Positions 10,208 through 30,506 of a DNA stretch of 39,379 nt are shown here, piece by piece (the stretch's first letter is position 1; each line of letters begins with the position of its first letter). The translations under genes were made by a program, and so were the position numbers. This DNA comes from a virus (taxonomy: Duplodnaviria; Heunggongvirae; Uroviricota; Caudoviricetes). The DNA lies in IMG/VR virus record IMGVR_UViG_2778261458_000007; one strand, given 5' to 3'. Below the pieces are notes generated by a model. That model was not told the origin of the DNA and made no database searches. It saw nothing but the letters and a program-made list of their open reading frames with translations.

Positions 10208-10538
10208 ATCAGCAGCAGAGCGCAAAGCCGCTCAGAGAGCCAGACAAGCTGAATCCGGTGTACGTAAGCTGGAGATTGTGCTTGATGCTCAGGAAATTGA
10301 AATGCTGGAGCGTAACTGTGCCACGCGTCGCCCCGGGCGTGCGCCTTACGAATTTGGTGAGTATATAGCGTTACTGATCCGCCAGGATGATGCACGCGTG
10401 CGCGGGCGTATAAAATCGATCAGCAGAAAACGTTGCGGTAAGTGCGGCGAGAGAGTTCCTGTGAATTCATGCCCGTGTAATGGTGACTCGCAATGCTGGG
10501 TGACCAAAGGCTGGCATGAAACGAAATTAATAGTGTGA
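10200..10538 (+). CDS. Hypothetical protein (Cys-rich C-terminus)
   Basis: ATG 10200 with AAGGTG upstream; C-terminal CGKCGERVPVNSCPCNGDSQC; stop lies inside palindrome GTGACATGTCAC. Confidence 0.45.
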   Translation: MSKSAAERKAAQRARQAESGVRKLEIVLDAQEIEMLERNCATRRPGRAPYEFGEYIALLIRQDDARVRGRIKSISRKRCGKCGERVPVNSCPCNGDSQCWVTKGWHETKLIV

Positions 10539-10546
10539 CATGTCAC
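10535..10546. repeat. Palindrome GTGACATGTCAC (copy 1)
   Basis: Perfect 12-bp palindrome overlapping stop of gene ending 10538. Confidence 0.6.
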
Positions 10547-10555
10547 GAAGGTGTT

Positions 10556-10768
10556 ATGCCAAAAATACGCTACGACCTTGAAGATATGAGAGATAACTCA
10601 GCAAATTTTCCGAAAGAGGTTAAATTTCTCATGCATAAGTATGGTTGCGCCAGGAGGGATATAGTTATCGACAGTCAGCACCCTTGCGGCGAGGATGTAA
10701 TTTTCATTCGCGGTAAATGGGAAGGGTATCTTGACGAGAGTTTTTACGATGAATTTGATGGACTTTGA
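10556..10768 (+). CDS. Hypothetical protein (70 aa)
   Basis: ATG 10556 with GAAGG upstream; followed by strong intrinsic terminator. Confidence 0.4.
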   Translation: MPKIRYDLEDMRDNSANFPKEVKFLMHKYGCARRDIVIDSQHPCGEDVIFIRGKWEGYLDESFYDEFDGL

Positions 10769-10773
10769 ATACT

Positions 10774-10799
10774 GCCGCCAACTATGGCGGCTTTATTTT
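10774..10799 (+). terminator. Intrinsic terminator separating early genes from terminase operon
   Basis: Hairpin GCCGCC-AACTAT-GGCGGC followed by TTTATTTT. Confidence 0.65.
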
Positions 10800-10809
10800 G
10801 CATGGTACT

Positions 10810-10826
10810 ATTACCACAACGGTAAC
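10810..10826. promoter_or_regulatory. Operator site 9 (terminase promoter): ATTACCACAACGGTAAC
   Basis: Between strong terminator and terS start; left half overlaps extended -10 TGGTACTAT. Confidence 0.55.
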
Positions 10827-10845
10827 TATTACCACGGTGGTTATG

Positions 10846-11439
10846 ATGCCTGCTGAACCTAAAACCTATAAACGCAAATCAACGCAATTTAAGCCGCTCA
10901 CAGCAATGCAGGAGGCTTATTGCCAGTCATACATCAAAACGCCTGAAAACCAGACTCAGGCAGCGATTAACGCAGGATTCTCCCCAAATACAGCGGCAGT
11001 TAAAGCCAGTGTCATGATGCGCGATGAACGCATTCAAAAACGGATTGCCGAGTTGATGGAGGAGCGCAACAAACGAATGCGCGTCAGTGCTGATTACGTT
11101 CTCATGCGCCTGGTGGAGATCGACCAGATGGACGTGATCGATATCCTCAACGACGATGGGAGCCTTAAACCAATCCGTGAGTGGCCGAAAATCTGGCGCA
11201 CTACGCTTAGTGGCTTTGATCTGTCATCGACCATCATGAACATGAACGAGGATTCGATAGAGACAATCCTCAAAAAAATTAAATGGCCTGACAAGGTGAA
11301 GAACCTTGAGCTGATTGGTAAGCATGTTGATGTCAACGCGTTCAAAGAACGTCTGGATGTTAATGTGAATGTGACAATTGCTGATCGCATAGCAGCAGCC
11401 AGGAAGCGACTCAAAGAACGTCAGGATGGTAATCAGTGA
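10846..11439 (+). CDS. Terminase small subunit
   Basis: Conserved region LTAMQEAYCQSYIKTPENQTQAAINAGFSPNTAAV typical of Terminase_2-type small subunits; immediately upstream of terL; start chosen at second ATG for RBS spacing. Confidence 0.7.
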   Translation: MPAEPKTYKRKSTQFKPLTAMQEAYCQSYIKTPENQTQAAINAGFSPNTAAVKASVMMRDERIQKRIAELMEERNKRMRVSADYVLMRLVEIDQMDVIDILNDDGSLKPIREWPKIWRTTLSGFDLSSTIMNMNEDSIETILKKIKWPDKVKNLELIGKHVDVNAFKERLDVNVNVTIADRIAAARKRLKERQDGNQ

Positions 11440-12911
11440 CAGATACAGCGTTATCTCCTGAAGAGCAGTTGATCGAGGATATTGCAGGGTTCACTCACGA
11501 TCCGCTTGGCTATGCCCTCTATGCGTTCCCGTGGGGGGAAGAGGGGACTGAACTGGCACATGCCACCGGCCCACGTCAGTGGCAGGCTGATGCGTTCCGA
11601 GAGATACGTGATCACCTGCAGAATCCAGAGACGCGCTATCAGCCGCTTATGCTGGCACGCGCTTCTGGTCACGGTATTGGTAAATCCGCATTCATCTCAA
11701 TGCTGATCAACTGGGGCATGTCCACTTGCGAGGATTGTAAGGTCGTGGTGACCGCCAACACCGACAACCAGCTACGAACGAAGACCTGGCCGGAAATTAT
11801 CAAGTGGTCGAACCTTGCTATCACGAAAGACTGGTTTACCTGTACCGCTACCGCGATGTACAGCAATGATCCTGGGCACGACAAGCGGTGGCGAGCTGAC
11901 GCAATCCCCTGGTCTGAGCACAACACTGAGGCATTCGCCGGACTACACAACGAGCGCAAACGCATCATCGTGGTATTCGATGAAGCGTCGAACATTGCCG
12001 ATCTGGTGTGGGAGGTAGCAGAGGGTGCGCTGACGGACGAAGACACCGAAATCATCTGGGTGGCGTTCGGGAACCCGACGCGTAACACCGGGCGTTTCCG
12101 TGAATGTTTCCGCAAGTACAAACACCGCTGGAAGTGTGCGCAGATTGACAGCCGGACGGTGGAAGGCACTAACAAACAGCAGTTGCAGAAATGGGTTGAT
12201 GACTACGGGGAAGACAGCGACTTCGTTAAAATCCGTGTGCGCGGCATATTCCCTGATGCATCTGAATTGCAGTTTATCCCTACCGGTCTTACTGATGAGG
12301 CAATGAAACGGGTGGTAACCGCTGCGCAGGTTGCACATGCTCCGGTGATAATCGGCGTTGACCCGGCATACTCAGGCGTTGATGACGCGGTGATATACCT
12401 GCGGCAGGGGCTGCACAGTAAGGTGCTATGGACTGGTAACAAGACCACCGACGATCTGATTATGGCGAAGCGTATCGCTGACTTTGAAGACCAGTACCAG
12501 GCTGACGCGGTGTTCATCGACTTCGGTTACGGAACCGGTCTGAAGTCAATCGGTGACGGATGGGGTCGTACATGGCAACTTGTTCCGTTCGGTGGCGCGT
12601 CTACTGACCCGCAGATGCTCAACAAGCGTGGGGAGATGTTCAATTCATGCAAGACATGGCTGAGGCTGGGCGGCATGCTGGATGACCAGGAAACAGCAGA
12701 CGACCTGTCGGCGGCTGAGTACAAAGTTCGTGTGGACGGTAAAATCGTTATCGAACCGAAGGAAGATATCAAAGAGCGTCTTGGGCGTTCGCCGGGTAAA
12801 GGCGATGCGCTACTGCTGACGTTTGCGTTCCCTGTGTCGAAGCGTCTGCGAATTCCTGGGCAGCAGAACCAGCAAGGCAAGGCCATCACAGATTATGACC
12901 CGTATGCTTAA
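11436..12911 (+). CDS. Terminase large subunit
   Basis: 491-aa ORF; Walker A-like GHGIGKS; acidic nuclease-type C-terminal region; coupled to terS. Confidence 0.85.
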   Translation: MTDTALSPEEQLIEDIAGFTHDPLGYALYAFPWGEEGTELAHATGPRQWQADAFREIRDHLQNPETRYQPLMLARASGHGIGKSAFISMLINWGMSTCEDCKVVVTANTDNQLRTKTWPEIIKWSNLAITKDWFTCTATAMYSNDPGHDKRWRADAIPWSEHNTEAFAGLHNERKRIIVVFDEASNIADLVWEVAEGALTDEDTEIIWVAFGNPTRNTGRFRECFRKYKHRWKCAQIDSRTVEGTNKQQLQKWVDDYGEDSDFVKIRVRGIFPDASELQFIPTGLTDEAMKRVVTAAQVAHAPVIIGVDPAYSGVDDAVIYLRQGLHSKVLWTGNKTTDDLIMAKRIADFEDQYQADAVFIDFGYGTGLKSIGDGWGRTWQLVPFGGASTDPQMLNKRGEMFNSCKTWLRLGGMLDDQETADDLSAAEYKVRVDGKIVIEPKEDIKERLGRSPGKGDALLLTFAFPVSKRLRIPGQQNQQGKAITDYDPYA

Positions 12912-12962
12912 TCCGCTGGTGGGGATAATGTCGTTGATATCCTCTGATGAGGATAAAACAAA

Positions 12963-12985
12963 GCCAGCTCATCGGCTGGCTGTTT
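12963..12985. terminator. Bidirectional hairpin/terminator between terL and gp49-like gene
   Basis: Hairpin GCCAGC-TCATCG-GCTGGC with T-rich tracts on both strands. Confidence 0.5.
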
Positions 12986-12997
12986 GTGACATGTCAC
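12986..12997. repeat. Palindrome GTGACATGTCAC (copy 2)
   Basis: Perfect 12-bp palindrome next to bidirectional hairpin, 5 bp from stop of gp49-like gene. Confidence 0.6.
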
Positions 12998-13001
12998 GGT
13001 G

Positions 13002-13379
13002 TTATTGCTCGCTTAGCTTCTGCTTCAGCAAGTAACCTTCGAGCATCCAGATTTTGTTTACAGCATTCTGCCGGGCAATCTTCCGACCAATTTCTGCATC
13101 AAAGTTTTCATGGCTTGCACAGGCGCTTTCTCCGGTTACAGTAAATCCGTTGCGCAGCACCAGAACGCAGAAGGTCAGAAGTGACTCAGCAGGGTGCGCT
13201 TCCTGGTAATAGTCAATTGGGCTTTCATGCGGTTTTAAAAGCTCATTAGCGCCATGAACCCCTTCTGCAGCCGTGAAATAGTGCTCACTAATAATCACGT
13301 CTTCGATGTGCTGCGGGGTGATTCGCGGTGCCGTTTTGCCTTTCTCAGTGATTTCTTTTTCGATTTGCTGGTCGTTCAT
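13002..13379 (-). CDS. Phage gp49/gp66-family protein (unknown function)
   Basis: 125-aa ORF on opposite strand between terminase and head genes; RBS AAGGTGAG; family assignment is from memory and tentative. Confidence 0.5.
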   Translation of the reverse strand: MNDQQIEKEITEKGKTAPRITPQHIEDVIISEHYFTAAEGVHGANELLKPHESPIDYYQEAHPAESLLTFCVLVLRNGFTVTGESACASHENFDAEIGRKIARQNAVNKIWMLEGYLLKQKLSEQ

Positions 13380-13390
13380 AATCTCACCTT

Positions 13391-13414
13391 AAAAAAATGC
13401 CCGGCGAACCGGGC
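13391..13414 (-). terminator. Intrinsic terminator upstream of gp49-like gene
   Basis: Hairpin GCCCGG-CGAA-CCGGGC followed on minus strand by seven T. Confidence 0.55.
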
Positions 13415-13492
13415 GAACTGGAAGCAATGAGTTATGCCTTCCGTGGCTGTACTGGTTTACAGCATGAAGTCATCGCAATGGCGTCCTGCTGT

Positions 13493-13534
13493 AAAAAGGG
13501 CGGTGATAGTCCTTCAAGGGAAACCATCACCGCC
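13493..13534 (-). terminator. Terminator of tRNA-Arg transcript
   Basis: 9-bp stem GGCGGTGAT/ATCACCGCC with structured 18-nt loop, followed on minus strand by CTTTTT; about 44 nt downstream of tRNA 3' end. Confidence 0.55.
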
Positions 13535-13577
13535 AAGCCCCTGGAACTTCTGGCATCACGGTCCTTAGGCGTGATTC

Positions 13578-13654
13578 TGGCGTGGCATGCAGGATTCGAA
13601 CCTGCGACCAACCGCTTAGAAGGCGGTTGCTCTGTCCAACTGAGCTAATGCCAC
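13578..13654 (-). tRNA. tRNA-Arg (anticodon UCU)
   Basis: 77-nt cloverleaf on minus strand: acceptor GTGGCAT/ATGCCAC, D-arm GCTC...GAGC, anticodon stem ACCGC/GCGGT with loop CTTCTAA, T-arm GCAGG-TTCGAAT-CCTGC, encoded CCA; own terminator downstream. Confidence 0.85.
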
Positions 13655-13976
13655 AACGCTGAGAGCACTTAGCCTGTTAAGTGCGCCACACTTTGTCGCA
13701 GCTCCATAAATGCTCTCATCGTTGTACCCTCGTCTCTTCCGAGGCGTCACACCGAATCGCCGGGATGGTGAATCCCCGTGCGCGGAATAAAACCGCTCGA
13801 CTTGCACATTCCAGCTACCTGGTTCGTTTGCCCGAGCAAGGGAGGGTGCCCCTTAAACGTATCCAGACCGCTATCGGCGCATGTGCCATACGCCGTACTG
13901 CTCAAAATAAAAGCTCACTCCACCTGTTCAATTTAACGACAAGCCAGTCAGGTTAATAACCGGAATGAACCCTTTA

Positions 13977-13993
13977 CTTACCTGAAAGGTAAT
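13977..13993. promoter_or_regulatory. Operator site 10 (head operon / tRNA divergent region): CTTACCTGAAAGGTAAT
   Basis: In noncoding region upstream of head genes and of minus-strand tRNA. Confidence 0.55.
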
Positions 13994-14082
13994 AATTCGT
14001 GCGTTAAATGTCAACTACCTACGATAAATAAATCATATGTGGTTAAATTGGTAATAATTTAATTGCGTACGGAGTCATTGAT

Positions 14083-14289
14083 ATGTGCATGGGTAGCTCA
14101 CCATCAGTGCCTGCAACACCAGAAGTTCAGGCAGCACCACAGGAGCAGGATGCCGCCGTTGTTGATGCCCGCGACGAAGAAACACGTCGCCGTCGCGCTG
14201 CTGCTGGTCGTAGTTCTACGCTGCTTACCGGTTCTCAGGGCGACACATCAACCGCTAATACCAGCGGTAAAACGCTGCTTGGTCAGTAA
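14083..14289 (+). CDS. Small hypothetical protein preceding portal (68 aa)
   Basis: ATG with GGAG RBS; shares 12-nt initiation region CGGAGTCATTGA with portal gene. Confidence 0.4.
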   Translation: MCMGSSPSVPATPEVQAAPQEQDAAVVDARDEETRRRRAAAGRSSTLLTGSQGDTSTANTSGKTLLGQ

Positions 14290-14303
14290 CCGGAGTCATT
14301 GAA

Positions 14304-15983
14304 ATGGCGGAAACAACTAAAGAGCGATTGAACAAACAGTTCGCACAACTTGAAAGCGAGCGTCAGTCGTTTGAGCCGCACTGGCGCGAGTTGAGTGATT
14401 ACATCAACCCGCGTGGTTCCCGCTTTCTGACTTCTGAGGTCAACCGTAACGATCGACGCAATACACGCATTATTGATTCGACCGGGACTATGGCGGCGCG
14501 CACTCTCGCCAGCGGCATGATGTCAGGCATCACAAGCCCCGCGCGTCCGTGGTTTCGCCTGGCTACGCCAGATCCTGAAATGATGGATTATGGCCCTGTT
14601 AAGTTGTGGCTTGAGGCGGTGCAGAACCGCATGAACGATATGTTCAATAAGTCGAATCTCTACCAGTCTCTTCCGCAGTTATACGGAAGCCTCGGCACAT
14701 ACAGCACTGGTGCAATGGCGGTGCTGGAGGATGACGAGGACATAATTCGCACAATGCCATTCCCGATAGGTAGTTACTACCTGGCTAACTCACCTCGTGG
14801 CAGTGTGGACACATGTTTTCGTAAGTTCTCTATGACTGTTCGTCAGCTTGTTCAGGAGTTCGGGCTAAATAACGTCAGCGAATCCGTAAAAAGCATGTGG
14901 GAAAGCGGTACCTACGAGAAGTGGATTGAAGTGATGCATTCGGTTTACCCGAACATTGACCGCGATACATCGAAGCTGGATAGCAAGAACAAGCCATTCA
15001 AATCGGTTTATTACGAGGTTGGTGGCGATAACGACAAGTTGTTGCGTGAGTCCGGATTCGATGAGTTTCCAATTATGGCTCCGCGCTGGGAAGTTAACGG
15101 CGAAGATGTTTATGGATCATCATGCCCGGGTATGCTGGCGCTTGGACCTGTTAAGGCATTGCAGCTTCTCCAGAAGCGCAAGTCGCAGTTGATTGATAAA
15201 GCCACCAATCCGCCGATGGTTGCTCCGACTTCCCTCAAGAATCAGCGCGCCTCCCTTCTTCCTGGCGACATCACGTATATCGATCAGATTACTGGTCAGG
15301 ATGGCTTCAGGCCTGCTTATCTGGTTAACCCCAGTACAGCAGATTTGGTGGCAGACATTCAGGACACTCGTCAAATCATTAACAGCGCCTACTTTGTCGA
15401 TCTGTTCATGATGTTGCAGAACATCAATACCCGCTCGATGCCTGTTGAAGCGGTGATCGAAATGAAAGAAGAAAAACTTCTGATGTTGGGGCCGGTTCTG
15501 GAGCGTCTGAACGACGAATGTCTTAATCCTCTCATTGACCGCGCTTTCTCGATGATGGTGCGTAAAAACATGCTGCCGCCACCGCCTGACGCGATGGAAG
15601 GTATGCCCCTGAAGGTCGAATACATTTCCGTCATGGCTCAGGCGCAGAAGTCTATCGGCCTGTCCAGTCTGGCGTCTACGGTCAACTTCATTGGTCAACT
15701 TGCGCAAGCGAAACCAGAAGCTCTCGACAAACTCAACGTTGATCAGGCGATCGATGCATTCGCTGATATGTCCGGAGTGTCTCCAACCGTCATTGTTCCG
15801 CAGGAACAGGTTGAGCAGGCTCGCCAGCAACGGGCACAGCAACAACAGCAGCAACAAATGATGGAGATGGGGATGGCGGCGGCACAGGGTGCCAAGACGC
15901 TAAGCGAAGCTAAAACTTCGGATCCGAGTGTTTTGTCAGCTATGGCGAATGCAGTTAGTGGTCAGGGTGGGCAATCACAATGA
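14304..15983 (+). CDS. Portal (head-to-tail connector, T7 gp8-like)
   Basis: 559-aa ORF directly after terminase module; Gln-rich C-terminus (QARQQRAQQQQQQQMMEMGMAAAQG) parallels T7-type connector C-terminus. Confidence 0.7.
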   Translation: MAETTKERLNKQFAQLESERQSFEPHWRELSDYINPRGSRFLTSEVNRNDRRNTRIIDSTGTMAARTLASGMMSGITSPARPWFRLATPDPEMMDYGPVKLWLEAVQNRMNDMFNKSNLYQSLPQLYGSLGTYSTGAMAVLEDDEDIIRTMPFPIGSYYLANSPRGSVDTCFRKFSMTVRQLVQEFGLNNVSESVKSMWESGTYEKWIEVMHSVYPNIDRDTSKLDSKNKPFKSVYYEVGGDNDKLLRESGFDEFPIMAPRWEVNGEDVYGSSCPGMLALGPVKALQLLQKRKSQLIDKATNPPMVAPTSLKNQRASLLPGDITYIDQITGQDGFRPAYLVNPSTADLVADIQDTRQIINSAYFVDLFMMLQNINTRSMPVEAVIEMKEEKLLMLGPVLERLNDECLNPLIDRAFSMMVRKNMLPPPPDAMEGMPLKVEYISVMAQAQKSIGLSSLASTVNFIGQLAQAKPEALDKLNVDQAIDAFADMSGVSPTVIVPQEQVEQARQQRAQQQQQQQMMEMGMAAAQGAKTLSEAKTSDPSVLSAMANAVSGQGGQSQ

Positions 15984-16276
15984 CAGATTACGAAGACGAT
16001 CAACTGAAAGAAGAAAACGCCCGTAAGCAACGTGACATGGCACAGCGTGAAATTGATGACATTCGCTTTGTCATGAGCAGTGAACAGGGGCGTCGCGTTG
16101 TCTGGTCTGTGCTGGAGAAAGGCCGGGTGTTTTCCGCTATCTCTCCGATGGATGCTATGGCAATGGCATTTAATGAGGGGCAACGCAATCTGGCGCTGGA
16201 ACTGTTTCAGCGCGTTATGGCGCATTGCCCTGAACAGTATTTGAAGATGGCCAAAGAGGCCAGTGAACAGGAGTGA
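15980..16276 (+). CDS. Hypothetical head-assembly protein (98 aa)
   Basis: Coupled between portal and scaffold genes. Confidence 0.45.
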   Translation: MTDYEDDQLKEENARKQRDMAQREIDDIRFVMSSEQGRRVVWSVLEKGRVFSAISPMDAMAMAFNEGQRNLALELFQRVMAHCPEQYLKMAKEASEQE

Positions 16277-16278
16277 TC

Positions 16279-18474: not shown

Positions 18475-18810
18475 ATGTCAGGTGAGAAACCAAGATACCG
18501 CGTTCTGCGCCTCTCTCATATCCATAACACTCTGTGGCCGGAGGGGGCAGAAATCGAATACGAAGGTGAGCCTGGTAGCGCACTGGAACCTGTTAACGAT
18601 GCAGCCAGACAGGCAAAAGCAAAAGTTGCAGGAAAGGTGTCAATGGCAGCAACCAGCACCAAAATCATCAACGATGTGTCAGATGATGGTGAACTGGATA
18701 AGCTCCGTGAAGAGTACGAATTGCTCTTTAACGAGAGGCCACACCATAACGCCAAAGCAGAAACGCTCCGCGAGAAGATCGCAGATAAGCGTAAAGAACT
18801 GGGCGTGTAA
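18475..18810 (+). CDS. Hypothetical protein
   Basis: ATG 18475 with AAGGTGA upstream; followed by intrinsic terminator. Confidence 0.4.
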   Translation: MSGEKPRYRVLRLSHIHNTLWPEGAEIEYEGEPGSALEPVNDAARQAKAKVAGKVSMAATSTKIINDVSDDGELDKLREEYELLFNERPHHNAKAETLREKIADKRKELGV

Positions 18811-19184: not shown

Positions 19185-19789
19185 TGGCCTCTGTAGTAGA
19201 GATCTGTAATCGTGCGCTGTCCAATATTGGCAACAGCCGCAGCATTAACAGCCTGACGGAAGCCAGCAAGGAAGCGGGGGAATGTTCGCTGCATTTTGAG
19301 GCCTGTCGTGATGCTGTGCTTTCTGATTTTGACTGGAACTTTGCTACAAAACGCGTGGCGCTTGCAGATACGAGCAATCCACCGCCTGACTGGGAATATG
19401 CGTACCAGTACCCTTCCGATTGTCTGCGCATTACTGAAATTATGCTTCCTGGTGTACGCAATCCAACAGCAGCAATGCGTGTTCAGTACGAAGTTGGTGC
19501 AGACACCAACGGAACAGGAAAATTGATCTACACAGACCAGCCGCAGGCATGGCTTAAGTATGTCTCTCGCGTTACAGATGTGAACATGTTTGATGCCATT
19601 TTTATGGAGGCGCTGGCCTGGCGTCTTGCGGCAGCTATTAACATGGCGCTGACTGGGAATGCAGACCTCGGTACGTTTGCCCTCAATATGTACAATCGCG
19701 TGATTCTTAGTGCTGGCTCGCATAGCCAGAATGAATCACAGGAACCACAGCCACCGGTTGATGAGTTTACCATTGCGAGGTTGTCCTGA
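19184..19789 (+). CDS. Tail tubular protein A-like (adaptor)
   Basis: N-terminal pattern and size resemble T7 gp11-type proteins; directly precedes large nozzle-like gene. Confidence 0.5.
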   Translation: MASVVEICNRALSNIGNSRSINSLTEASKEAGECSLHFEACRDAVLSDFDWNFATKRVALADTSNPPPDWEYAYQYPSDCLRITEIMLPGVRNPTAAMRVQYEVGADTNGTGKLIYTDQPQAWLKYVSRVTDVNMFDAIFMEALAWRLAAAINMALTGNADLGTFALNMYNRVILSAGSHSQNESQEPQPPVDEFTIARLS

Positions 19790-23275: not shown

Positions 23276-25789
23276 ATGCCAGTTGTACCAACAACATCGG
23301 GCCGTCAGGTTCAGAGCAGAGGGATTTCGACGCAGGGATTCTCATCGTTTCAGACTCCAAATGTCGGTGATGTACTTGGCGATGTTGCAGAGCAATATGC
23401 AGGTATTATTGCGCAGGCAAAACAGCGTGCGAATGTTGCTATGGCTCAGGATGCTTCTCTTAGCTTAAGCCAGATAAGCAGCGATCTGCTGAATAACCCT
23501 GAAACAGGTTTGCTTAACCTGAAAGGGAAAAATGCTATTGGAAAAGGTCAGGAGTATACGCAGCAGTTTGATGCTCAGGTCGAACAACTGGCTATGTCGC
23601 TGCCTGATGAACAGGCTCGTAATGCTTTCATGCAGCAGGCGCAGCAGCAGCGCATTCAGTTCACTACGCAGGCCGGGCGGCACGAGATAGGGCAAATTAA
23701 TGCCTACGAAGAAGGTCAGTTTCAGGCGACGCTGCTGAACAATGGTAAAAATGCCGCAGCATTGTATGGCGACAACACCGCATACGTATTGGCTAATAAG
23801 CAAACTTTCCAGCAAATTGAGGAGTACGGTGTTGCACATGGCTGGAGCGACGAGCAAATACAGGCCAAGAAAATCGAGTTTAAAGAGAAGGTTGCTGATG
23901 CCGCATTGTCCCAGTGGTCGGCAAACAATGCGACCGCATTCATCCAAAGTAATGGCGAGTTAAGTGATACTGCTGCTGGAGCTCGCCGTGCTGTAGCAGA
24001 TAGTGACTCTTCCGAGCATGCCCGTGGCATACGCAACAATAACCCAGGAAATCTCGAATACAGCAAAACTAATCCGTGGGTAGGCCAGACCGGTGATGAT
24101 GGTCGATTTGCTAAATTCGAAACACCTGAACACGGGATTCGTGCATTAGGGCGGAACCTGATGTCGTATCAGAGGCAGGGTATTGATACCGTCAGTGAGA
24201 TAATTAATCGCTGGGCACCGCCTACTGATAAAAATGACACTATGTCGTATATCAAAGCAGTGTGCGAACAACTTGGCGTTTCTGCTGATGAGCCTCTCGA
24301 TGCATCAAATCCTGATACCCTGAAGGCGCTTTGTGCAGCCATTATCCATCATGAGAACGGTAGCCAGCCATACAGTGATCAGCAGTTAACTGCTGGTGTC
24401 AGTGCAGCACTTGGTTTATCAACAATTCCAACCAACACCAAACGCTATACCGGTAATGCAGCATTCGATGCGGCATCTCCTGAGGCTCAGGCAAGTTTTA
24501 TGCGACAGGCGGATCAACTGCGTCGGCAGCAGCAGGCTGAATATAAAACGATGCTCGACAGCCGGGTTCGCGATGCGACGGCTGCGTATATGCGTGGCGT
24601 TGAATTTCCTAACCCACCAGGTGAGGATGATTTTATTGCAGCTTATGGCGTCAGAGAAGGAAACCTGCGATATACCGAGTTCAGAAATACGCAGATCGCC
24701 GGACAGTATATAGGCTCTTTCCGCAACATGCCGACAAGCAGCATTACAGCATATGTTGAGCAATTGCGCCCAGATACTGGTGAGACAGGGGAGGGTTATG
24801 CGGCACGAGTCGCTCTTTATGACAACGTTGTGTCGGCTGCAAATCAGGTGATAAAGCAGCGGCAGTCGGATCCTGTGCAGTTCTCTCTTGCCTCCGGACA
24901 GGCAAAGCCTATCGACATGAGCAATAAGGATAACTTTGGACAGAGCGTTGCCTTGCGTGCCGCTCAGGTCAGTGACCTTGCTAAGTCATATGGCACTCCA
25001 CTGACGTTCTTTTCCAAAGACGAGGCCAATCAGATCGGTGTTTTCTTTCGTGATGCGCCCGTTTCCCAACAGGCAGCATATCTCGATACCATCAGGCAGA
25101 GCACTGGTGGTGGGAAGGTGTATATGTCAGCACTACAGCAGATTAGTGCCAACGCGCCATCTGCTGCCGTTGCCGGGATACTGATGGATAAGCCTGGTGG
25201 TATTTTGGCAGAAAAAAACTGGTTTAATCCGGATGTTTCCGTGTCTCCTGAAACCGCTGCGCAGACAATTCTTGCTGGCGCGGCGGCTCGTAAAGGTACT
25301 GATGATGCGAAAGGTATTCCGATGCCTAAAGATGCTGATCTTCGCCTTGAGTTTTCTGACATGGTGAAGGATGCATTTGCTGGTGACGCTCAGGGGGCAT
25401 CAATGGCATACGAGATCGCAAAGGACTATTACGCTGGTGTGATGGCGAAAAAAGGCGTGGTATCAGGCGAAATTGACAATGATGTCTGGAAACAGGCTGT
25501 TAACGTAGCTACAGGTGGCGTGCATGACTATAACGGAATGGGGAATGTCCTTTTGCCGTGGGGAATGTCTGCAGAGCAATTCGATAAGCAGGTTAATCAG
25601 GCTTGGAATGAACAAGTTGTCGGCACCGGGATAAAAACACCGCCTGGTCAGTATGGTTTGCAAAGTTACGGCGATAGTCAGTACCTGGTGAAACTTGGTA
25701 CTGGTTATCTGCTGAAAGATGATGGTTCTCCTGTTGTTCTTGATCTGACACAGAAGCGTCAGAGATTCTCCGGAGATATTCCGCAATGA
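23276..25789 (+). CDS. Internal virion / DNA-ejection protein (837 aa)
   Basis: Large ORF in core-protein position with RBS AAGGGG; contains a conserved-looking segment IRNNNPGNLEY...RWAPP. Confidence 0.45.
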   Translation: MPVVPTTSGRQVQSRGISTQGFSSFQTPNVGDVLGDVAEQYAGIIAQAKQRANVAMAQDASLSLSQISSDLLNNPETGLLNLKGKNAIGKGQEYTQQFDAQVEQLAMSLPDEQARNAFMQQAQQQRIQFTTQAGRHEIGQINAYEEGQFQATLLNNGKNAAALYGDNTAYVLANKQTFQQIEEYGVAHGWSDEQIQAKKIEFKEKVADAALSQWSANNATAFIQSNGELSDTAAGARRAVADSDSSEHARGIRNNNPGNLEYSKTNPWVGQTGDDGRFAKFETPEHGIRALGRNLMSYQRQGIDTVSEIINRWAPPTDKNDTMSYIKAVCEQLGVSADEPLDASNPDTLKALCAAIIHHENGSQPYSDQQLTAGVSAALGLSTIPTNTKRYTGNAAFDAASPEAQASFMRQADQLRRQQQAEYKTMLDSRVRDATAAYMRGVEFPNPPGEDDFIAAYGVREGNLRYTEFRNTQIAGQYIGSFRNMPTSSITAYVEQLRPDTGETGEGYAARVALYDNVVSAANQVIKQRQSDPVQFSLASGQAKPIDMSNKDNFGQSVALRAAQVSDLAKSYGTPLTFFSKDEANQIGVFFRDAPVSQQAAYLDTIRQSTGGGKVYMSALQQISANAPSAAVAGILMDKPGGILAEKNWFNPDVSVSPETAAQTILAGAAARKGTDDAKGIPMPKDADLRLEFSDMVKDAFAGDAQGASMAYEIAKDYYAGVMAKKGVVSGEIDNDVWKQAVNVATGGVHDYNGMGNVLLPWGMSAEQFDKQVNQAWNEQVVGTGIKTPPGQYGLQSYGDSQYLVKLGTGYLLKDDGSPVVLDLTQKRQRFSGDIPQ

Positions 25790-27588
25790 GTTACTTTGGC
25801 CTTAATCCAGTAAACCAGAATCAGCAACTTGACGAAGCAGCATCAAATCCAGCGGGCTTTAACAGCGATGTTGGTTTTTTCGACAATGCTGTAGGAGCGG
25901 CATTGTCTGGTTTGTACTCCGGGCTGGTGGCAAAGCCAGATCAGTTGCTATGGGCAGGGATGGATAAAATCGTATCCCCGATTGCTCAGTTTATTAACGA
26001 AAACACCTCGCTCAATGATACTTCAGTTTCATACATTGCCGAGCAGAGAAAACTAGCAGAGCAGCAGGTTAAGCGGCTGACGCCTGATGCCGCGACAACC
26101 GGAACCGCCGGGCAGGTTCTTTATGGGTTGTTCGATATGGGCGGGCAGGCTGTTGTCGGTACAACGCTCGGTGGTCCTGTCGGAGGTGCAGCGGCGGTAA
26201 CTTCGCTACAGGGTTTTTCTGAGTTTGAACGGCTGACAGCACAGGGTGTTGATTTCAGGACGGCGCAGGAAGCGGGATTAGTGCAGGGCATTACTGCTGG
26301 TGCCGGAACACTGATCCCTATGAGCCTCGGGTTACGTGCTGGTGGTGCGCTGGCGGAAGGTGTGGCGGCTCAGCTTGCGCGGACGGGTGAGAGTTCAGTG
26401 CGACGCGCCGCAGCAACAGCAGTACGTGCAACGCCAGATATTGCCTATGCCGCAGGTACAAATATTGCGTTCGGTATGGCACAGCGTGGGCTTACTGCAA
26501 AAACGCTTCGTGATGGTGGCTATAGCGAAATGGCTAACCAGTATGATGTGTTGGATCGACAGGCAATTGCTATTGATGCTGTTCTTGGGGTGGCGTTTGG
26601 TGGTGTCGGCAGATTTATTAACTCTCGCGGCGAGTCTACAAACGCACCAAATTTTTCACCAGTTGATATCGATGCTGCACTGGCGGCGAATGCCGCTCAT
26701 CATGCTGAAATTGATATTGCGCCCGGCGTGCCGATCAACGTGCTTTCGCGCAATTCTCACATTCAGGCTCTGCGAAAAGCTATGTCTGATGTTAGCCAGG
26801 GGAGACCTGTAGACGTTACCAGCATTGTTGAGTCTGCATCTTTCAGTGAAATTCCTGGGCGCAAGAGTCTGCTGTCTCAGGCAGTTAATGAGGCTCTGTC
26901 ATCTGTAGATGATGGAGTAACGGCGCGCGCTATAGAAAATCGGTTGCTTGAAGAACAGGCCGCACAGCTTTTGCCGCGTGGAGATAGACAGGTTTACCAG
27001 TCTGAAATCGCTAATAGCCAACGAATTATTGAAAATCTCACTGAACAGCGTGCACAAATTCTTGCAGAAGAGCCAACCGGTAGCGGTAAAGCTTTGTCTC
27101 GTGCTCGATCAGATAAACAGGCCAGACTTCGCGATATTGATCAACGAATCCGGCAGGCACAAGAACGCCTGGAATTTTCCCGTAACGCGTTGGCACCGCA
27201 CGAGCCTGGCGGTCAGTTTTTTGAAGCTCGAGCAGAACTGGCTCGGAGACTGCAGGCAGAAAGTGAACTTAATGCTCAGGCTGTTTCATTCTATAAAACA
27301 GCAGAGGTCAGAACGCCAGACGAAGTAGCTCCTTTTGAGCCTGATAAAATATTGCAACAGGCAGAACAAAAAATGATGTCAGATCAGGCAGGAGATATTG
27401 ATCTGCGCATAGCTGCAGACTCGCTGCTTGAATCACCTGACATGATAATCACCGTGCTGGATGATGATGGTAATCCACAATCGCGCAGTGCGCGTGAAGT
27501 ACTGGATGAAGCGAACAGGGAAAGTGAGCAGGCAATACAGGATTCCAGCCTGTTTGATGTCGCTGTGGCGTGTTTCTTGAGAGGTTAA
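25786..27588 (+). CDS. Internal virion / DNA-ejection protein (600 aa)
   Basis: Gly/Ala-rich N-terminal half, coiled-coil-like C-terminal half; coupled to neighbours. Confidence 0.45.
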   Translation: MSYFGLNPVNQNQQLDEAASNPAGFNSDVGFFDNAVGAALSGLYSGLVAKPDQLLWAGMDKIVSPIAQFINENTSLNDTSVSYIAEQRKLAEQQVKRLTPDAATTGTAGQVLYGLFDMGGQAVVGTTLGGPVGGAAAVTSLQGFSEFERLTAQGVDFRTAQEAGLVQGITAGAGTLIPMSLGLRAGGALAEGVAAQLARTGESSVRRAAATAVRATPDIAYAAGTNIAFGMAQRGLTAKTLRDGGYSEMANQYDVLDRQAIAIDAVLGVAFGGVGRFINSRGESTNAPNFSPVDIDAALAANAAHHAEIDIAPGVPINVLSRNSHIQALRKAMSDVSQGRPVDVTSIVESASFSEIPGRKSLLSQAVNEALSSVDDGVTARAIENRLLEEQAAQLLPRGDRQVYQSEIANSQRIIENLTEQRAQILAEEPTGSGKALSRARSDKQARLRDIDQRIRQAQERLEFSRNALAPHEPGGQFFEARAELARRLQAESELNAQAVSFYKTAEVRTPDEVAPFEPDKILQQAEQKMMSDQAGDIDLRIAADSLLESPDMIITVLDDDGNPQSRSAREVLDEANRESEQAIQDSSLFDVAVACFLRG

Positions 27589-27593
27589 ATTAA

Positions 27594-30068
27594 ATGAGAC
27601 AGGAATGTATACAAGCGGTTCAGCAGGCGGCGCAGCGCATGTTAACGGCGCGAGAAATACAGAACATTGAAGACCGCATTTATCGAAATATGCGCTCCAT
27701 TGCTCGTGATGACCCGATGTCGTGGCGACAACTTTCCGAATCAGAGCGGCTATATCGAGCAGCACAATTGGCATCTGAAGAATTACAGCGAGAAGCGGCA
27801 TTAAAGAAACGTCGTGTGGCTCTCACTATAGCCGCGCGTCAGAGATTGGATAAATTTATCAATAGCTATCAAGGGGCTGATGGGAAACTTGGCGCTCTTA
27901 ACCGTACTATAGCTTTTAATGCAGACGGTAAATCTAATTTCCTCTCTGTTGAATCCAGAACAAAAGCCACTCGTGATTATGCATTGAGTCAATTGCAGGA
28001 GGCATTCGAAGCAGTTGATCCTCGCTTTTTTGGCCTGTTTGAAGATGAAGCGGGCGTGCGTGACCTGGTATATGAAATGCGAGGGCAAAATACTGGCAAT
28101 GCTAAAGCAAGAAAAGGTGCTAAGGCGTGGAGAGAAGTGACAGAGCTACTGCGCCGCCGGTTTAATGATGCTGGTGGGGACATTGGCTATCTCGAAAACT
28201 GGGGGATCCCTCAACATCATTCTATGGAAAAGGTTGGGGCGGTATCAAAAGATAAATGGGTTAGCGATGTTATAGGTAAGCTGGATCGCAAATATTATAC
28301 CCGAGCCGATGGACAACTGATGAACGATGTCGAGTTGTCTGCATTTCTTGGAGAGGCTTATAACACGATCGCTACTGGTGGGCTGAATAAGCTTACTGAT
28401 ACCGGAATGCGAATTTCCGGCGCACGTGCTAACCGTGGTAATGCATCACGACAGATACATTTCAAAGATGCAGATTCCTATCTGCAATATCAGCAACTTT
28501 ATGGCGATCGCTCTCTATGGGAAATCATGGTCGGTCACCTGGAAGGGATCAGTAAAGATATTGCTTTGGTGGAAACATATGGTCCAAACCCCGATCATGT
28601 TTTCCGTTCCCTTCTTGATCAGGTGAAGGCAGAAACGGCAACAGCTAACCCGAGTAAAACCGGTAGCGTCGAGCGGCTGGCGAACAAAACAGAGAACCTG
28701 TACAACTTTATTTCCGGAAAGACACAGCCTGTTGCGAATCCTCACATCGCGCGCTGGTCTGACAATATCAGAAACTGGCTGGTTGCCAGCAGGCTCGGAT
28801 CCGCGTTGCTGTCATCGTTCTCTGATCTTGGAACCATGTATCTGTCTGCGAAGGTTACCAACCTTCCAATGAACCAGTTATTCCGCAACCAGCTTGAAGC
28901 TATGGACCCAACGAACCGTACTGAGCTTGCGCGGGCGCGCCGCGCTGGTCTGGCGATGGAATCTCTACTTGGCAGCGTTAACCGCTGGGCGATGGATAAT
29001 ATGGGGCCGTCTGTGTCTCGTTGGGCTGCAACGGCGGTAATGCGTGCCAGTGGGCTTACAGCATGGTCAGATGCGCACAAGCGCGCTTATGGCGTAACCA
29101 TGATGGGAAGCCTGGGTGAAGTAGTGTCACGGACACCAGACCTTCGTAGCCTCGATGACTCTGATTTTCGTATCCTGAAAAGCAAAGGGATTACTGACAC
29201 AGACTGGAGCGTATGGAAGCTGGCGCAACAGGAGGACTGGGGGAACGGTAATAATACGATGCTGACACCGGAAAGCATTATGCGTATCCCTGATTCAGCA
29301 GTTAAACATCTTGGTGAGCCTGAACGTGTGAAATTTGAGGCAATGCGTAAACTGCTCGGTGCCGTAACTGAAGAAGTTGATATGGCTGTTATTACACCGG
29401 GCGCACGTGAACAGATGTTCGTAGGGTCTGGTCTTCAGCGTGGAACATGGAAAGGTGAATTAACGAGAAGTGTTTTCCTGTTTAAATCGTTCCCTATCTC
29501 GGTAGTTATGCGTCACTGGCATAGAGCTATGGGGATGCCGTCTGCTGGTGGGCGTGCGGCATATATAGCAACGTTTTTAGCAAGCACAACCATGCTTGGT
29601 GCTCTTTCCATGCAGATTACTGATCTTATTAATGGGAGAAATCCAAAAGAAATGACCGGTGACAACATGGTTAAATTCTGGATAAATGCATTTTTAAAAG
29701 GTGGTGGGGCAGGGTTGTATGGTGATTTTCTTTTCTCTGACCACACCAGGTACGGGAGCGGCGCACTAGCGTCGATGCTTGGCCCGGTAGCTGGTCTGGT
29801 TGATGACGTAGTGAAGATTGCTCAGGGCATACCATTAAATGCTGTGGAAGGGAAGAATGAGCAGACTGGTGGTGATCTGGTTAAGCTTGGGAAAGGTTTG
29901 ATGCCTGGTGCGAATCTCTGGTACTTGAAGGCGGCTCTCGATCACATGATCTTTAACCAGATGCAGGAGTATTTTTCACCAGGTTATTTGCGTAAAATGG
30001 AGCAACGTTCGAAGAAAGAGTTTAACCAGACATACTGGTGGCGACCTCAGGATGTCACTCCGCAATAA
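27594..30068 (+). CDS. Internal virion / DNA-ejection protein (824 aa)
   Basis: Large ORF with hydrophobic segments near C-terminus; T7 gp16-equivalent position. Confidence 0.45.
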   Translation: MRQECIQAVQQAAQRMLTAREIQNIEDRIYRNMRSIARDDPMSWRQLSESERLYRAAQLASEELQREAALKKRRVALTIAARQRLDKFINSYQGADGKLGALNRTIAFNADGKSNFLSVESRTKATRDYALSQLQEAFEAVDPRFFGLFEDEAGVRDLVYEMRGQNTGNAKARKGAKAWREVTELLRRRFNDAGGDIGYLENWGIPQHHSMEKVGAVSKDKWVSDVIGKLDRKYYTRADGQLMNDVELSAFLGEAYNTIATGGLNKLTDTGMRISGARANRGNASRQIHFKDADSYLQYQQLYGDRSLWEIMVGHLEGISKDIALVETYGPNPDHVFRSLLDQVKAETATANPSKTGSVERLANKTENLYNFISGKTQPVANPHIARWSDNIRNWLVASRLGSALLSSFSDLGTMYLSAKVTNLPMNQLFRNQLEAMDPTNRTELARARRAGLAMESLLGSVNRWAMDNMGPSVSRWAATAVMRASGLTAWSDAHKRAYGVTMMGSLGEVVSRTPDLRSLDDSDFRILKSKGITDTDWSVWKLAQQEDWGNGNNTMLTPESIMRIPDSAVKHLGEPERVKFEAMRKLLGAVTEEVDMAVITPGAREQMFVGSGLQRGTWKGELTRSVFLFKSFPISVVMRHWHRAMGMPSAGGRAAYIATFLASTTMLGALSMQITDLINGRNPKEMTGDNMVKFWINAFLKGGGAGLYGDFLFSDHTRYGSGALASMLGPVAGLVDDVVKIAQGIPLNAVEGKNEQTGGDLVKLGKGLMPGANLWYLKAALDHMIFNQMQEYFSPGYLRKMEQRSKKEFNQTYWWRPQDVTPQ

Positions 30069-30077
30069 GGAACAACA

Positions 30078-30491
30078 ATGAAGGAATTATTGCTGTTATC
30101 GGTATTTTTGATATCCGCTTGCTCGACATCCTATGATGTTTATGACGGTGTTGATAAGGCATATTGCGACAAAGTTAAAATGGATTTTTCTCTTGCCAAG
30201 ACGGCGAAGGATAGTTGTATTGATCACTACGTCAAGACTTATACCAAGCCAGCCTCATCGGCATCTGATATTGCTGAAGGTGCTGTGTTTGAGTGTAACA
30301 AGGTGATATCCATCGCAGCGAGTTCTTCATACGATGCTGCTGTATGTGCAATGGCTGAAAGAAACGGCATGTCAGTGCAAAAAATTAATAGCATGATAAG
30401 CAGTAATGACGAAGCCAAAATAAGAACTGATATCAGCTCGGTGAAAAAAGATGCCATGAACAGAGTTGTAAAATATCAGTCATCTTTATAA
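30078..30491 (+). CDS. Lipoprotein (137 aa), last gene of late operon
   Basis: Signal peptide with lipobox LISAC; RBS AAGGAA; GC visibly lower than structural genes; followed by palindrome and terminator. Confidence 0.55.
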   Translation: MKELLLLSVFLISACSTSYDVYDGVDKAYCDKVKMDFSLAKTAKDSCIDHYVKTYTKPASSASDIAEGAVFECNKVISIAASSSYDAAVCAMAERNGMSVQKINSMISSNDEAKIRTDISSVKKDAMNRVVKYQSSL

Positions 30492-30494
30492 GTC

Positions 30495-30506
30495 GTGACA
30501 TGTCAC
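30495..30506. repeat. Palindrome GTGACATGTCAC (copy 3)
   Basis: Perfect 12-bp palindrome between lipoprotein stop and late-operon terminator. Confidence 0.6.

What the first reader, a model, noticed from the sequence alone, without database searches (positions are those of the whole stretch)
10535..30506. Perfect 12-bp palindrome GTGACATGTCAC occurs three times, each at the 3' end of a transcription unit
Identical copies at 10535-10546, 12986-12997 and 30495-30506. A given 12-mer is expected about 0.005 times in 39 kb, so three copies are not chance. Each lies within a few bp of a stop codon and, for copies 2 and 3, directly beside an intrinsic terminator hairpin. Flanks extend the similarity ((T/C)GTGACATGTCAC(G/A)). 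Candidate roles are a binding site for an unidentified regulator, a processing or termination-enhancing element, or a site tied to packaging or recombination. The spacing does not fit CRP (TGTGA-N6-TCACA).
Basis: seen in the sequence. Interest (0 to 1): 0.65.

Follow-up and report, generated by a model that had tools for sequence, protein, structure and literature searches.

The report
Operator palindrome of a phage regulator
The thrice-repeated 12-base palindrome is most likely the DNA docking site of a small, uncharacterised phage DNA-binding protein whose own gene ends inside the first copy, a gene-plus-site pair that recurs in unrelated temperate phages of enteric bacteria, Vibrio and Aeromonas.

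Summary
GTGACATGTCAC occurs exactly three times (10535, 12986, 30495), against 0 in 100 shuffles. The window is an epsilon15/phiV10-like temperate podophage (Uetakevirus).

The same three syntenic copies are intact in Salmonella phage epsilon15, although the flanks are only about 80% identical. Copy 1 contains the TGA stop codon of ORF 10200-10538. This ORF encodes a 112-aa protein (epsilon15 gp49 / N15 gp46 family, phrog_536, no Pfam family). Its AlphaFold model (pLDDT 92) has a ribbon-helix-helix DNA-binding fold followed by a Cys-rich zinc domain.

Every complete phage genome examined that carries a homologue has 2-4 copies of GTGAC-NN-GTCAC, where about 0.04 are expected. These are ZF40, N15, a Vibrio siphophage and Klebsiella BUCT711. 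In several deep branches one copy overlaps or abuts the gene's stop codon. Lambda, P2 and Sf6 have neither gene nor site.

The half-sites never vary while the centre does, and the RNA hairpin is negligible. This points to a dimeric protein reading duplex DNA, not an RNA element.

Adjacency to terminators holds only in Uetakeviruses. What the bound protein does is inferred only; my best guess is a boundary or roadblock at operon junctions. The site is one base shorter than E. coli matS. Two phages carry the palindrome without the gene.

The parts
10535..10546 (.). Palindrome copy 1 (GTGACATGTCAC). It contains the TGA stop codon of the regulator gene and ends 9 nt before the ATG of the next small ORF.
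   Evidence: The same arrangement (site overlapping the family gene's own TGA) is seen in epsilon15, BUCT711, N15, L093 and L096. In a site-first scan of viral contigs, 17 stretches have the site starting 1 nt before the stop.
12986..12997 (.). Palindrome copy 2, between the convergent terL (+) and the moron gene 13002-13379 (-). It lies 4 bp from the terminator hairpin.
   Evidence: The syntenic copy in epsilon15 is at 2142 and in phiV10 at 2262.
30495..30506 (.). Palindrome copy 3, 3 bp after the last gene of the virion operon and directly abutting its terminator hairpin. It faces the 3' end of the minus-strand antirepressor (C4/isrK/Bro-N) operon.
   Evidence: The syntenic copy in epsilon15 is at 19517, in phiV10 at 19493 and in BUCT711 at 18526.
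10200..10538 (+). Gene for the candidate binding protein (112 aa; epsilon15 gp49 / phiV10 p55 / N15 gp46 family, phrog_536). It has an N-terminal Arg-rich helix, a ribbon-helix-helix core and a C-terminal Cys-rich zinc domain.
10774..10799 (+). Intrinsic terminator at the end of the early-right operon, downstream of copy 1. It is homologous to epsilon15 39646-39672.
12962..12981 (.). Terminator hairpin next to copy 2. It scores on both strands; the better T-run is on the minus strand, so it chiefly ends the moron gene 13002-13379.
30507..30531 (+). Intrinsic terminator of the virion structural operon, starting at the base after copy 3.
16032..16043 (.). One-mismatch copy GTGACATGGCAC inside a CDS. 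Membership is uncertain: it is present in phiV10 but not in epsilon15. The same variant is the tandem partner of the exact site in the Yersinia phage.
10556..10768 (+). Small ORF (70 aa, phrog_1541) inserted between copy 1 and the terminator. It is a variable module: close relatives carry a different sequence starting right after the palindrome.
13002..13379 (-). Moron gene (PF13876, N4 gp49 / Sf6 gp66 family) whose stop codon is 4 bp from copy 2. In relatives other genes occupy this place.

Best explanation
GTGACATGTCAC is the DNA operator of the phage's own small DNA-binding protein, the product of ORF 10200-10538 (epsilon15 gp49 / N15 gp46 family).

Proposed binding mode (inferred). The protein is a ribbon-helix-helix dimer with a C-terminal zinc domain. 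I infer that it binds duplex DNA at GTGAC-NN-GTCAC. The two invariant GTGAC half-sites would be read by invariant parts of the protein, the Arg-rich N-terminal helix and/or the zinc domain. The variable two-base centre would be read by the variable beta-ribbon.

The module. Gene and site travel together as a two-part unit; one site is built into the gene's stop codon. The further copies lie at junctions between transcription units.

Proposed action in this phage (inferred). The protein is made from the delayed-early rightward operon. It would then occupy three junctions: early operon / terminase genes, terminase / moron, and virion operon / antirepressor operon. Each lies next to a terminator. 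My preferred reading is that the bound dimer acts as a two-way boundary (roadblock) that reinforces these terminators and stops read-through or convergent transcription from crossing between units.

What is shown and what is not. Shown: the conservation of the sites, the gene-site co-occurrence, and the predicted fold. Inferred: the binding itself, and the sign of the effect. Blocking RNA polymerase is preferred, but helping it through via the TraR-like zinc domain is not excluded.
For: (1) Three exact copies are present against 0 in 100 shuffles.

(2) The same three syntenic copies are perfectly conserved in epsilon15, whose flanks are diverged. Two are conserved in phiV10, plus a third that is cut by the record ends.

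(3) Co-occurrence with the gene in unrelated phages, each with 2-4 sites against about 0.04 expected: ZF40 myovirus, N15 linear plasmid-prophage, Vibrio K233 siphovirus and Klebsiella BUCT711. A partial Yersinia P2-like genome has one exact and one 1-mismatch site 33 bp apart. Metagenomic relatives L089, L093, L094 and L096 also carry sites.

(4) The site overlaps or abuts the gene's own stop codon in branches whose proteins are only 30-35% identical.

(5) Unselected controls lambda, P2 and Sf6 have no gene and no site.

(6) A site-first scan of viral contigs found the gene inside 32 of 120 short stretches that hold the 14-mer. In 17 of them the site starts 1 nt before the stop.

(8) The half-sites are invariant while the centre varies (AT, TG/CA, AC, GC, CC, AG). 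The beta-strand varies in parallel. The RNA hairpin is worth -1.2 kcal/mol with z about 0.

(9) Sites are mostly intergenic in densely coding genomes and sometimes tandem, 23 or 33 bp apart, as is usual for cooperative RHH operators.

(10) In 80 close relatives the palindrome is invariant, while the sequence immediately after it switches between alternative modules.
Against: No binding experiment exists, and none was found in the literature library.

Two phages carry exact copies but no detectable family gene. Phage BUCT708 has 2 copies, both inside genes. Klebsiella ST16-OXA48phi5.3 has 1 copy at a stop/start junction. The association is therefore not absolute. The palindrome contains both TGA and ATG, so it can arise at coupled gene junctions.

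In the site-first scan, 59 of about 123 sites were in contexts I could not assign.

Against the roadblock reading specifically: BUCT711 has two sites inside late structural genes, ZF40 has two inside early genes and N15 has one inside repA. A tight roadblock at those places would be harmful. Terminator adjacency is found only in Uetakeviruses. A site at the 3' end of its own gene is unusual for a classical repressor.
Confidence: 0.6

Rival explanations
1. The sites are bound by a host nucleoid protein that reads GTGAC/GTCAC-type palindromes, such as MatP (matS = GTGAC-RNY-GTCAC) or SlmA (GTGAGTACTCAC). The phage would use them to tie its DNA into host chromosome organisation or the cell-cycle machinery.
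For: The half-sites are identical to matS and the outer four bases are identical to the SlmA site. All phages with the system infect Enterobacterales, Vibrio or Aeromonas, the clade known to have MatP (the MatP distribution is from general knowledge). BUCT708 keeps two sites without the phage gene.
Against: The spacing is 2, not 3, in every one of about 30 sites. Only one spacing-3 match was seen in all the genomes scanned. The central four bases differ from the SlmA site at all four positions. A host factor does not explain why one site is built into the stop codon of the phage RHH gene in deeply diverged lineages. True matS sites are reported to be absent from prophages.
Confidence: 0.1
2. 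The element works in RNA. It would be a short hairpin in the 3' untranslated region, just ahead of the terminator, that enhances termination, is cut by an RNase or stabilises the transcript.
For: In this window and in epsilon15 the order stop codon - palindrome - terminator hairpin holds for three different transcription units. In several other phages the site lies 9-20 nt upstream of a start codon.
Against: The hairpin is 4 bp and -1.2 kcal/mol, no better than shuffles. The 'stem' bases never covary across lineages with 30% protein identity, whereas the 'loop' varies freely. No terminator is nearby outside the Uetakeviruses. No Rfam family matches. The Aeromonas variant GTGACCGGACAC would break the stem.
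Confidence: 0.05
3. The palindrome is not a working site. It would be a conserved 'boundary sequence' or recombination joint between mosaic modules, helped by containing a stop codon (TGA) and a start codon (ATG). Its copies would spread by module exchange.
For: Among 80 close relatives the sequence switches between alternative modules exactly at the palindrome's 3' edge, at copies 1 and 2. In gene-less phages the copies sit at stop/start junctions or include a probable ATG start.
Against: A passive joint does not explain invariant half-sites with a freely varying centre across very different phage types. It also does not explain tandem pairs at 23 and 33 bp, or the strict linkage to one particular gene's stop codon. 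A protein-bound site can equally become a mosaic junction simply because it is the only conserved stretch.
Confidence: 0.08
4. The protein bound at the palindrome helps RNA polymerase through the adjacent terminators. It would act as a site-specific antiterminator or late-gene switch in a phage that lacks a Q homologue, using its TraR/DksA-like zinc domain to touch RNA polymerase.
For: The gene sits where Q sits in lambdoid phages: it is the last early-right gene, followed by a terminator and then the terminase genes. Copies 1 and 3 lie upstream of plus-strand terminators on the path of late transcription. In the Vibrio phages a site lies 19-20 nt before terS. The C-terminal half aligns with TraR (profile against PDB E 0.03; hhalign probability 47%).
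Against: ZF40 and N15 carry their own Q-like proteins as well. Copy 2 lies downstream of the plus-strand hairpin. Other plus-strand terminators annotated in epsilon15 have no palindrome. Foldseek finds no TraR match, and the second CxxC of the TraR finger is missing.
Confidence: 0.12

Closest known systems
Ribbon-helix-helix regulators and their palindromic operators (Arc and Mnt of P22, CopG, type II antitoxins such as TacA, ParD, MazE)
   Different: There is no sequence membership in any Pfam RHH family. The protein has an extra conserved Arg-rich N-terminal helix and a C-terminal zinc domain. The conserved site lies at the 3' end of the gene, in its stop codon, not in its promoter. No partner toxin or other conserved neighbour exists.
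MatP / matS of E. coli (Ter macrodomain organiser)
   Different: The spacer is 2 bp, not 3. There is no detectable sequence homology (hhalign probability 0.5%). There is no four-helix bundle and no coiled coil; a zinc domain takes their place. The system is carried by a phage.
SlmA binding site (GTGAGTACTCAC)
   Same: A 12-bp palindrome with the same outer four bases, GTGA...TCAC.
   Different: The four central bases differ. SlmA is a TetR-family protein unrelated to the phage protein. SlmA sites lie mainly in coding regions.
TraR / DksA-type zinc-finger proteins of plasmids and phages (F TraR, P2 Orf82)
   Same: A helix - CxxCG..P zinc finger - helix arrangement aligns over 58 columns. Such proteins are common in phage early operons; P2 Orf82 is annotated as one.
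   Different: The similarity is marginal. The second CxxC is replaced by two separated Cys. There is no acidic tip. Foldseek gives no support. TraR proteins have no DNA-binding domain and no cognate DNA site.
Lambda Q / qut late antitermination module
   Same: The gene occupies the same place, as the last early-right gene, and is followed by a DNA site, a terminator and the late genes.
   Different: There is no homology to any Q family. The sites number three and are dispersed. ZF40 and N15 have the family gene in addition to a Q-like gene.

Membership tests
Ribbon-helix-helix (CopG/Arc/MetJ) DNA-binding superfamily | beta-strand - helix - helix fold | tested here: met
Ribbon-helix-helix (CopG/Arc/MetJ) DNA-binding superfamily | Sequence match to a curated RHH family | tested here: not met
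   No Pfam or NCBIfam hit for the window protein. Only 1-2 of 58 family members give sub-threshold hits to RHH_5, RHH_1 or RepB-RCR_reg.
Ribbon-helix-helix (CopG/Arc/MetJ) DNA-binding superfamily | Dimer inserts a two-stranded beta-sheet into the major groove of a (pseudo)palindromic operator | not testable with these tools
   Only a monomer could be modelled, and no DNA complex. The palindromic target and the co-variation of beta-strand and site centre are consistent with it.
MatP / matS | 13-bp site GTGAC-R-N-Y-GTCAC | tested here: not met
   All sites are 12 bp with a 2-bp spacer. Spacing-3 matches are absent from the window.
MatP / matS | Protein homologous to MatP (four-helix bundle + RHH + coiled coil) | tested here: not met
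SlmA binding site | GTGAGTACTCAC consensus | tested here: not met
   Four central positions differ (GTGA-CATG-TCAC against GTGA-GTAC-TCAC).
CRP site | TGTGA-N6-TCACA | tested here: not met
   Here the arrangement is TGTGA-N4-TCAC(G/A).
Epsilon15-type prophage repressor operator | ATTACC-N5-GGTAAT, as annotated in the epsilon15 record | tested here: not met
   The motif is different. Operator-like copies lie at 10810-10844, not at the palindromes.
TraR/DksA C4 zinc-finger family | CxxC ... CxxC zinc finger flanked by helices, with a match to PF01258 | tested here: inconclusive
   Profile against PDB: TraR and YbiI at E 0.03. hhalign against TraR: probability 47%. There is no Pfam hit, no Foldseek hit, and the second CxxC is not conserved.
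Intrinsic terminator | G+C-rich hairpin followed by a T-run | tested here: not met
   The palindrome itself folds at -1.2 kcal/mol and has no T-run. The terminators are separate neighbouring hairpins.
Any Rfam RNA family | Covariance-model match at gathering score | tested here: not met
   The only hits in the window are tRNA, isrK and C4, none at a palindrome.
Lambda-type Q antiterminator | Q-family protein | tested here: not met
   No Pfam, NCBIfam or PDB sequence match. Relatives ZF40 and N15 encode separate Q-like proteins.

The most novel reading that the evidence does not exclude
The gene-site pair is a phage counterpart of MatP/matS. In this reading an RHH protein reads matS-like half-sites set one base closer together, which keeps the system orthogonal to the host. 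Bound at a few sites dispersed on the phage genome, it would organise or bridge phage DNA, or keep host SMC machines (MukBEF, or SMC-type defence complexes) off it, rather than regulate promoters. A second unconventional reading is also not excluded: the zinc domain could be a TraR-like module that touches RNA polymerase, making the protein a DNA-tethered factor acting on polymerase at terminators.
Probability: 0.12. Interest if true: 0.85.

Novelty: new variant of a known kind. Interest (0 to 1): 0.55.

Why it matters
It assigns a candidate DNA target to a protein family that databases list only as 'hypothetical' or 'transcriptional regulator' without evidence. The family is phrog_536: about 150 clusters at 50% identity, with no Pfam family. 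It also defines a compact gene-plus-site module shared by podo-, myo- and siphophages and by linear plasmid-prophages of enteric bacteria, Vibrio and Aeromonas.

The claim is cheap to test, with a gel shift on a 12-mer. Epsilon15 and phiV10 relatives are used as Salmonella and E. coli O157 reporter and typing phages, yet the control of their late and accessory genes is unmapped, so the result would be useful there.

The near-identity to matS, one base shorter, raises a concrete question: has a phage copied the recognition code of the host's terminus organiser?

Tried and rejected
Literature. No paper holds the 12-mer, and none describes a phage MatP-like system. The epsilon15 genome paper (PMC2698709) is not held. 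The ZX5 paper deals only with the repressor, antirepressor and integrase.

Promoter reading. GTGACA resembles a -35 hexamer, but no -10 element lies at the right distance at any window copy on either strand (by eye). I rejected this as a general explanation.

Packaging site. Three copies occur, two of them far from terS, and the element is present in cos phages such as N15. I rejected this.

Conserved partner gene. The genes downstream of the family gene in five lineages are unrelated.

Defence-system link. PADLOC gives nothing for the window's moron genes. Only the Yersinia neighbour is a Ppl defence gene.

Wider locus collection. The distant-member alignment A3 was too diverse for the search for related loci. 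A single distant query gave only 2 loci.

Structure searches. Foldseek against PDB and BFVD was uninformative. The afdb50 library was unavailable.

Not possible with the tools. A scan of the host chromosome for the 12-mer could not be run, because patterns need 14 fixed bases and BLAST needs 30.


Full report
**What the window is.** The window is a temperate podophage of the epsilon15/phiV10 type (genus Uetakevirus). It is 95-98% identical over the terminase region to E. coli phages phiV10, PAS61, ZX5 and the O157 typing phages, and about 82% identical to Salmonella phage epsilon15. It is written starting at the integrase gene.

The gene order is:
- integrase, then the early-left genes on the minus strand;
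- repressor at 5160-5744 (-);
- replication and accessory early-right genes (+);
- ORF 10200-10538;
- terS and terL, ending at 12911;
- a minus-strand moron at 13002-13379;
- portal through to the last virion gene at 30078-30491;
- a minus-strand accessory operon at 33267-30609;
- tail fibre, then the lysis genes.

GTGACATGTCAC occurs exactly three times, at 10535, 12986 and 30495. None of 100 dinucleotide-preserving shuffles contained a single copy. The only near-copy, GTGACATGGCAC at 16032, lies inside a gene.

- Copy 1 contains the TGA stop of ORF 10200-10538.
- Copy 2 lies 4 bp from the stop of the minus-strand gene 13002-13379 and 4 bp from hairpin 12962-12981.
- Copy 3 lies 3 bp after the stop of 30078-30491 and directly abuts terminator hairpin 30507-30524.
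- With one flanking base on each side, all three are the same 14-mer, TGTGACATGTCACG; copy 3 is inverted.

**The element is under selection.** Epsilon15 has exact copies at the same three places (39612, 2142, 19517), although the surrounding DNA has diverged. PhiV10 has two exact copies; its third is cut in two by the arbitrary ends of the record and carries one mismatch. In 79 of 80 close relatives from viral contigs the copy at the ORF's stop codon is intact. The sequence that follows it switches between alternative modules exactly at the palindrome's edge, and the same happens at copy 2.

**The neighbouring gene is the key.** ORF 10200-10538 encodes a 112-aa protein of the epsilon15 gp49 / phiV10 p55 / N15 gp46 family (phrog_536, named 'transcriptional regulator' there without evidence). 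It has no Pfam, NCBIfam or PDB sequence match. The family is small: 148 cluster representatives among 1.84 billion. By tblastn it is found only in phages of Escherichia, Salmonella, Klebsiella, Enterobacter, Citrobacter, Yersinia, Pectobacterium, Vibrio and Aeromonas.

**The motif generalises and co-occurs with the gene.** I fetched unrelated phages that carry a homologue. In all of them the motif generalises to GTGAC-NN-GTCAC, and 2-4 copies occur where about 0.04 are expected.

| Phage | Sites |
|---|---|
| Pectobacterium myovirus ZF40 | three GTGACATGTCAC, one 3 bp after the gene's stop |
| N15 | three GTGAC(TG/CA)GTCAC, one containing the gene's TGA and followed by the next gene's ribosome-binding site |
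| Vibrio siphophage K233 and relatives L088, L089 | three syntenic sites with centres GC, AC or CC, one 19-20 nt before terS |
| Klebsiella Uetakevirus BUCT711 | four sites |
| Yersinia P2-like phage | an exact and a one-mismatch site 33 bp apart |
| Metagenomic relatives L093, L096 (30-35% protein identity) | GTGACAGGTCAC overlapping the gene's own TGA |
| L094 | two tandem sites 23 bp apart |
| An Aeromonas phage | three identical copies of a diverged motif, GTGACCGGACAC, each 13-15 nt before a start codon, including the family gene's own |

**Controls.** The unselected controls lambda, P2 and Sf6 have neither gene nor site. In the reverse direction, I scanned viral contigs for TGTGACATGTCACA. 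Of 120 short stretches that hold it, 32 contained the family gene. In 17 of those the site starts one base before the stop codon. About 32 more stretches were syntenic with other sites of gene-carrying phages.

**The protein looks like a DNA-binding dimer.** An AlphaFold model built on 58 diverse homologues has mean pLDDT 92. Its elements are:
- an Arg-rich helix (residues 5-19);
- a strand-helix-helix unit (about 23-75);
- a Cys-rich knuckle (78-99; C79, C82 and C99 are invariant);
- a short C-terminal helix.

**DNA rather than RNA.** The half-sites GTGAC/GTCAC never change across lineages, while the two central bases vary freely. That is the reverse of what an RNA stem-loop would show. The RNA hairpin is worth -1.2 kcal/mol, no better than shuffles. 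No Rfam family matches at the palindromes.

The beta-strand of the protein varies between lineages, and the group with an 'AT' centre shares a K(L/I)E(L/I)xL-type strand. This suggests that the beta-ribbon reads the centre and an invariant part reads GTGAC. Reviews describe MatP similarly, as contacting DNA through both its RHH and a second domain. This step is inference.

**What the bound protein does is not shown.** In this window and in epsilon15, the order stop codon - palindrome - terminator holds for three units: the early-right operon, the minus-strand moron and the virion operon. All three sites are junctions between transcription units. Copy 3 faces the end of an antirepressor operon that begins with isrK and C4 RNAs and a Bro-N gene.

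My preferred reading is a two-way boundary that reinforces the terminators. It has real problems:
- terminator adjacency is absent outside the Uetakeviruses;
- BUCT711, ZF40 and N15 have sites inside genes;
- in N15 one site lies about 66 bp upstream of the start of the antirepressor-operon RNAs, a position that would suit an activator.

An antitermination role, and a MatP-like role in DNA organisation, remain open.

**Limits of the association.** A phage deposited as Stenotrophomonas BUCT708 has two exact copies, both inside genes, and no family gene. Klebsiella phage ST16-OXA48phi5.3 has one copy at the cro stop / next-gene start junction and no family gene. Both were found because they contain the site, so they do not measure the background rate. 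They do show that the palindrome can persist without the gene. Possible reasons are that it holds a TGA and an ATG, that it travels with mosaic modules, or that it is read in trans by a co-resident prophage. In the site-first scan, 59 sites stayed unassigned.

**Comparison with known systems.**
- The element is not a CRP site (wrong spacing).
- It is not the epsilon15-type repressor operator (ATTACC-N5-GGTAAT).
- It is not matS (13 bp).
- It is not a SlmA site (central four bases differ).
- It works most like an RHH operator. It differs in the protein's extra domains and in the site being built into the 3' end of the gene.
- Prophages are reported to avoid true matS. A matS shortened by one base is therefore a notable choice of target.

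**Verdict.** The element is real and conserved, and it is very probably a protein-binding DNA site. Its partner is most likely the adjacent RHH/zinc protein (about 0.6-0.7). The mechanism is open: boundary or roadblock about 0.3, antitermination about 0.12, host factor about 0.1, passive joint about 0.08, RNA element about 0.05. It is a new variant of a known kind of system and can be tested directly with a gel shift.

Noticed in passing
window 33083-33267 (-), with Bro-N gene 32324-33049 (-): Rfam finds isrK (33191-33267) and C4 antisense RNA (33083-33166) directly upstream of a Bro-N antirepressor-like gene. This is a P1 immI / N15 immA-type antirepressor control module on the minus strand. 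Its operon runs down to 30609 and ends facing palindrome copy 3. N15 has the same isrK+C4 pair, with one of its GTGAC-NN-GTCAC sites about 66 bp upstream of it.
   Followed up: partly
window 13581-13654 (-): A tRNA gene (Rfam 73 bits) lies between the moron gene and the portal region. Relatives annotate a tRNA-Arg there.
   Followed up: no
window 10800-10850: Between terminator 10774-10791 and terS lie two sequences resembling the repressor operators annotated in epsilon15: ATTACCACAACGGTAAC at 10810-10826 and ATTACC... at 10828. By comparison with epsilon15, terS probably starts at ATG 10846. The TTG at 10765 used in the phiV10 annotation would overlap the terminator.
   Followed up: partly
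window 10547-10560 and 12998-13010; loci L003-L082: Copies 1 and 2 are both followed by GGTGTTAT within a few bases. Among 80 close relatives the sequence after each palindrome switches between unrelated alternatives exactly at the palindrome's edge. The palindromes therefore mark mosaic recombination joints.
   Followed up: partly
L001 (phiV10 NC_007804) 39101-39104 and 1-8: The RefSeq record of phiV10 is opened in the middle of the palindrome (…GTGA | CATGTTAC…). The third copy is therefore invisible in the linear record, and it carries one mismatch.
   Followed up: yes
L220 (phage BUCT708, OM816834) 2142 and 32255; L219 (Klebsiella phage ST16-OXA48phi5.3) 7537: Exact GTGACATGTCAC copies occur in phages with no detectable family gene. 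In several such contexts the central ATG looks like a start codon, or the TGA like the stop of the preceding gene (…GAGGTGTGACATGTCACA…). BUCT708 is labelled a Stenotrophomonas phage, but about 14 of the 120 contig stretches returned by the palindrome scan (about 50% G+C) share its context.
   Followed up: partly
L092 (Klebsiella phage BUCT711) about 380-430, minus strand: Right after the palindrome at the family gene's stop there is a promoter-like sequence with a perfect LexA box (TACTGTTTAAATATACAGTA) in front of a 109-aa gene. It is probably an SOS-controlled antirepressor inserted at the same junction.
   Followed up: no
L084 (Yersinia phage vB_YenM_42.18) 8073-12561: In this P2-like phage the family gene sits in the known defence hotspot after gene A, next to an 872-aa PHP+ABC-ATPase protein that matches the Ppl defence family. 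The two sites lie downstream of Ppl and upstream of an unknown 240-aa gene.
   Followed up: partly
L090 230 and 2882; L091 19904 (Aeromonas phage 85AhydR10PP): The most distant homologue examined goes with a diverged, asymmetric motif, GTGACCGGACAC. It is present three times, always in the same orientation and 13-15 nt upstream of a start codon, including that of the family gene itself.
   Followed up: partly
window 38309-38848 (-): A DUF5384 gene lies at the far end of the window after the lysis genes. Its role is unknown.
   Followed up: no
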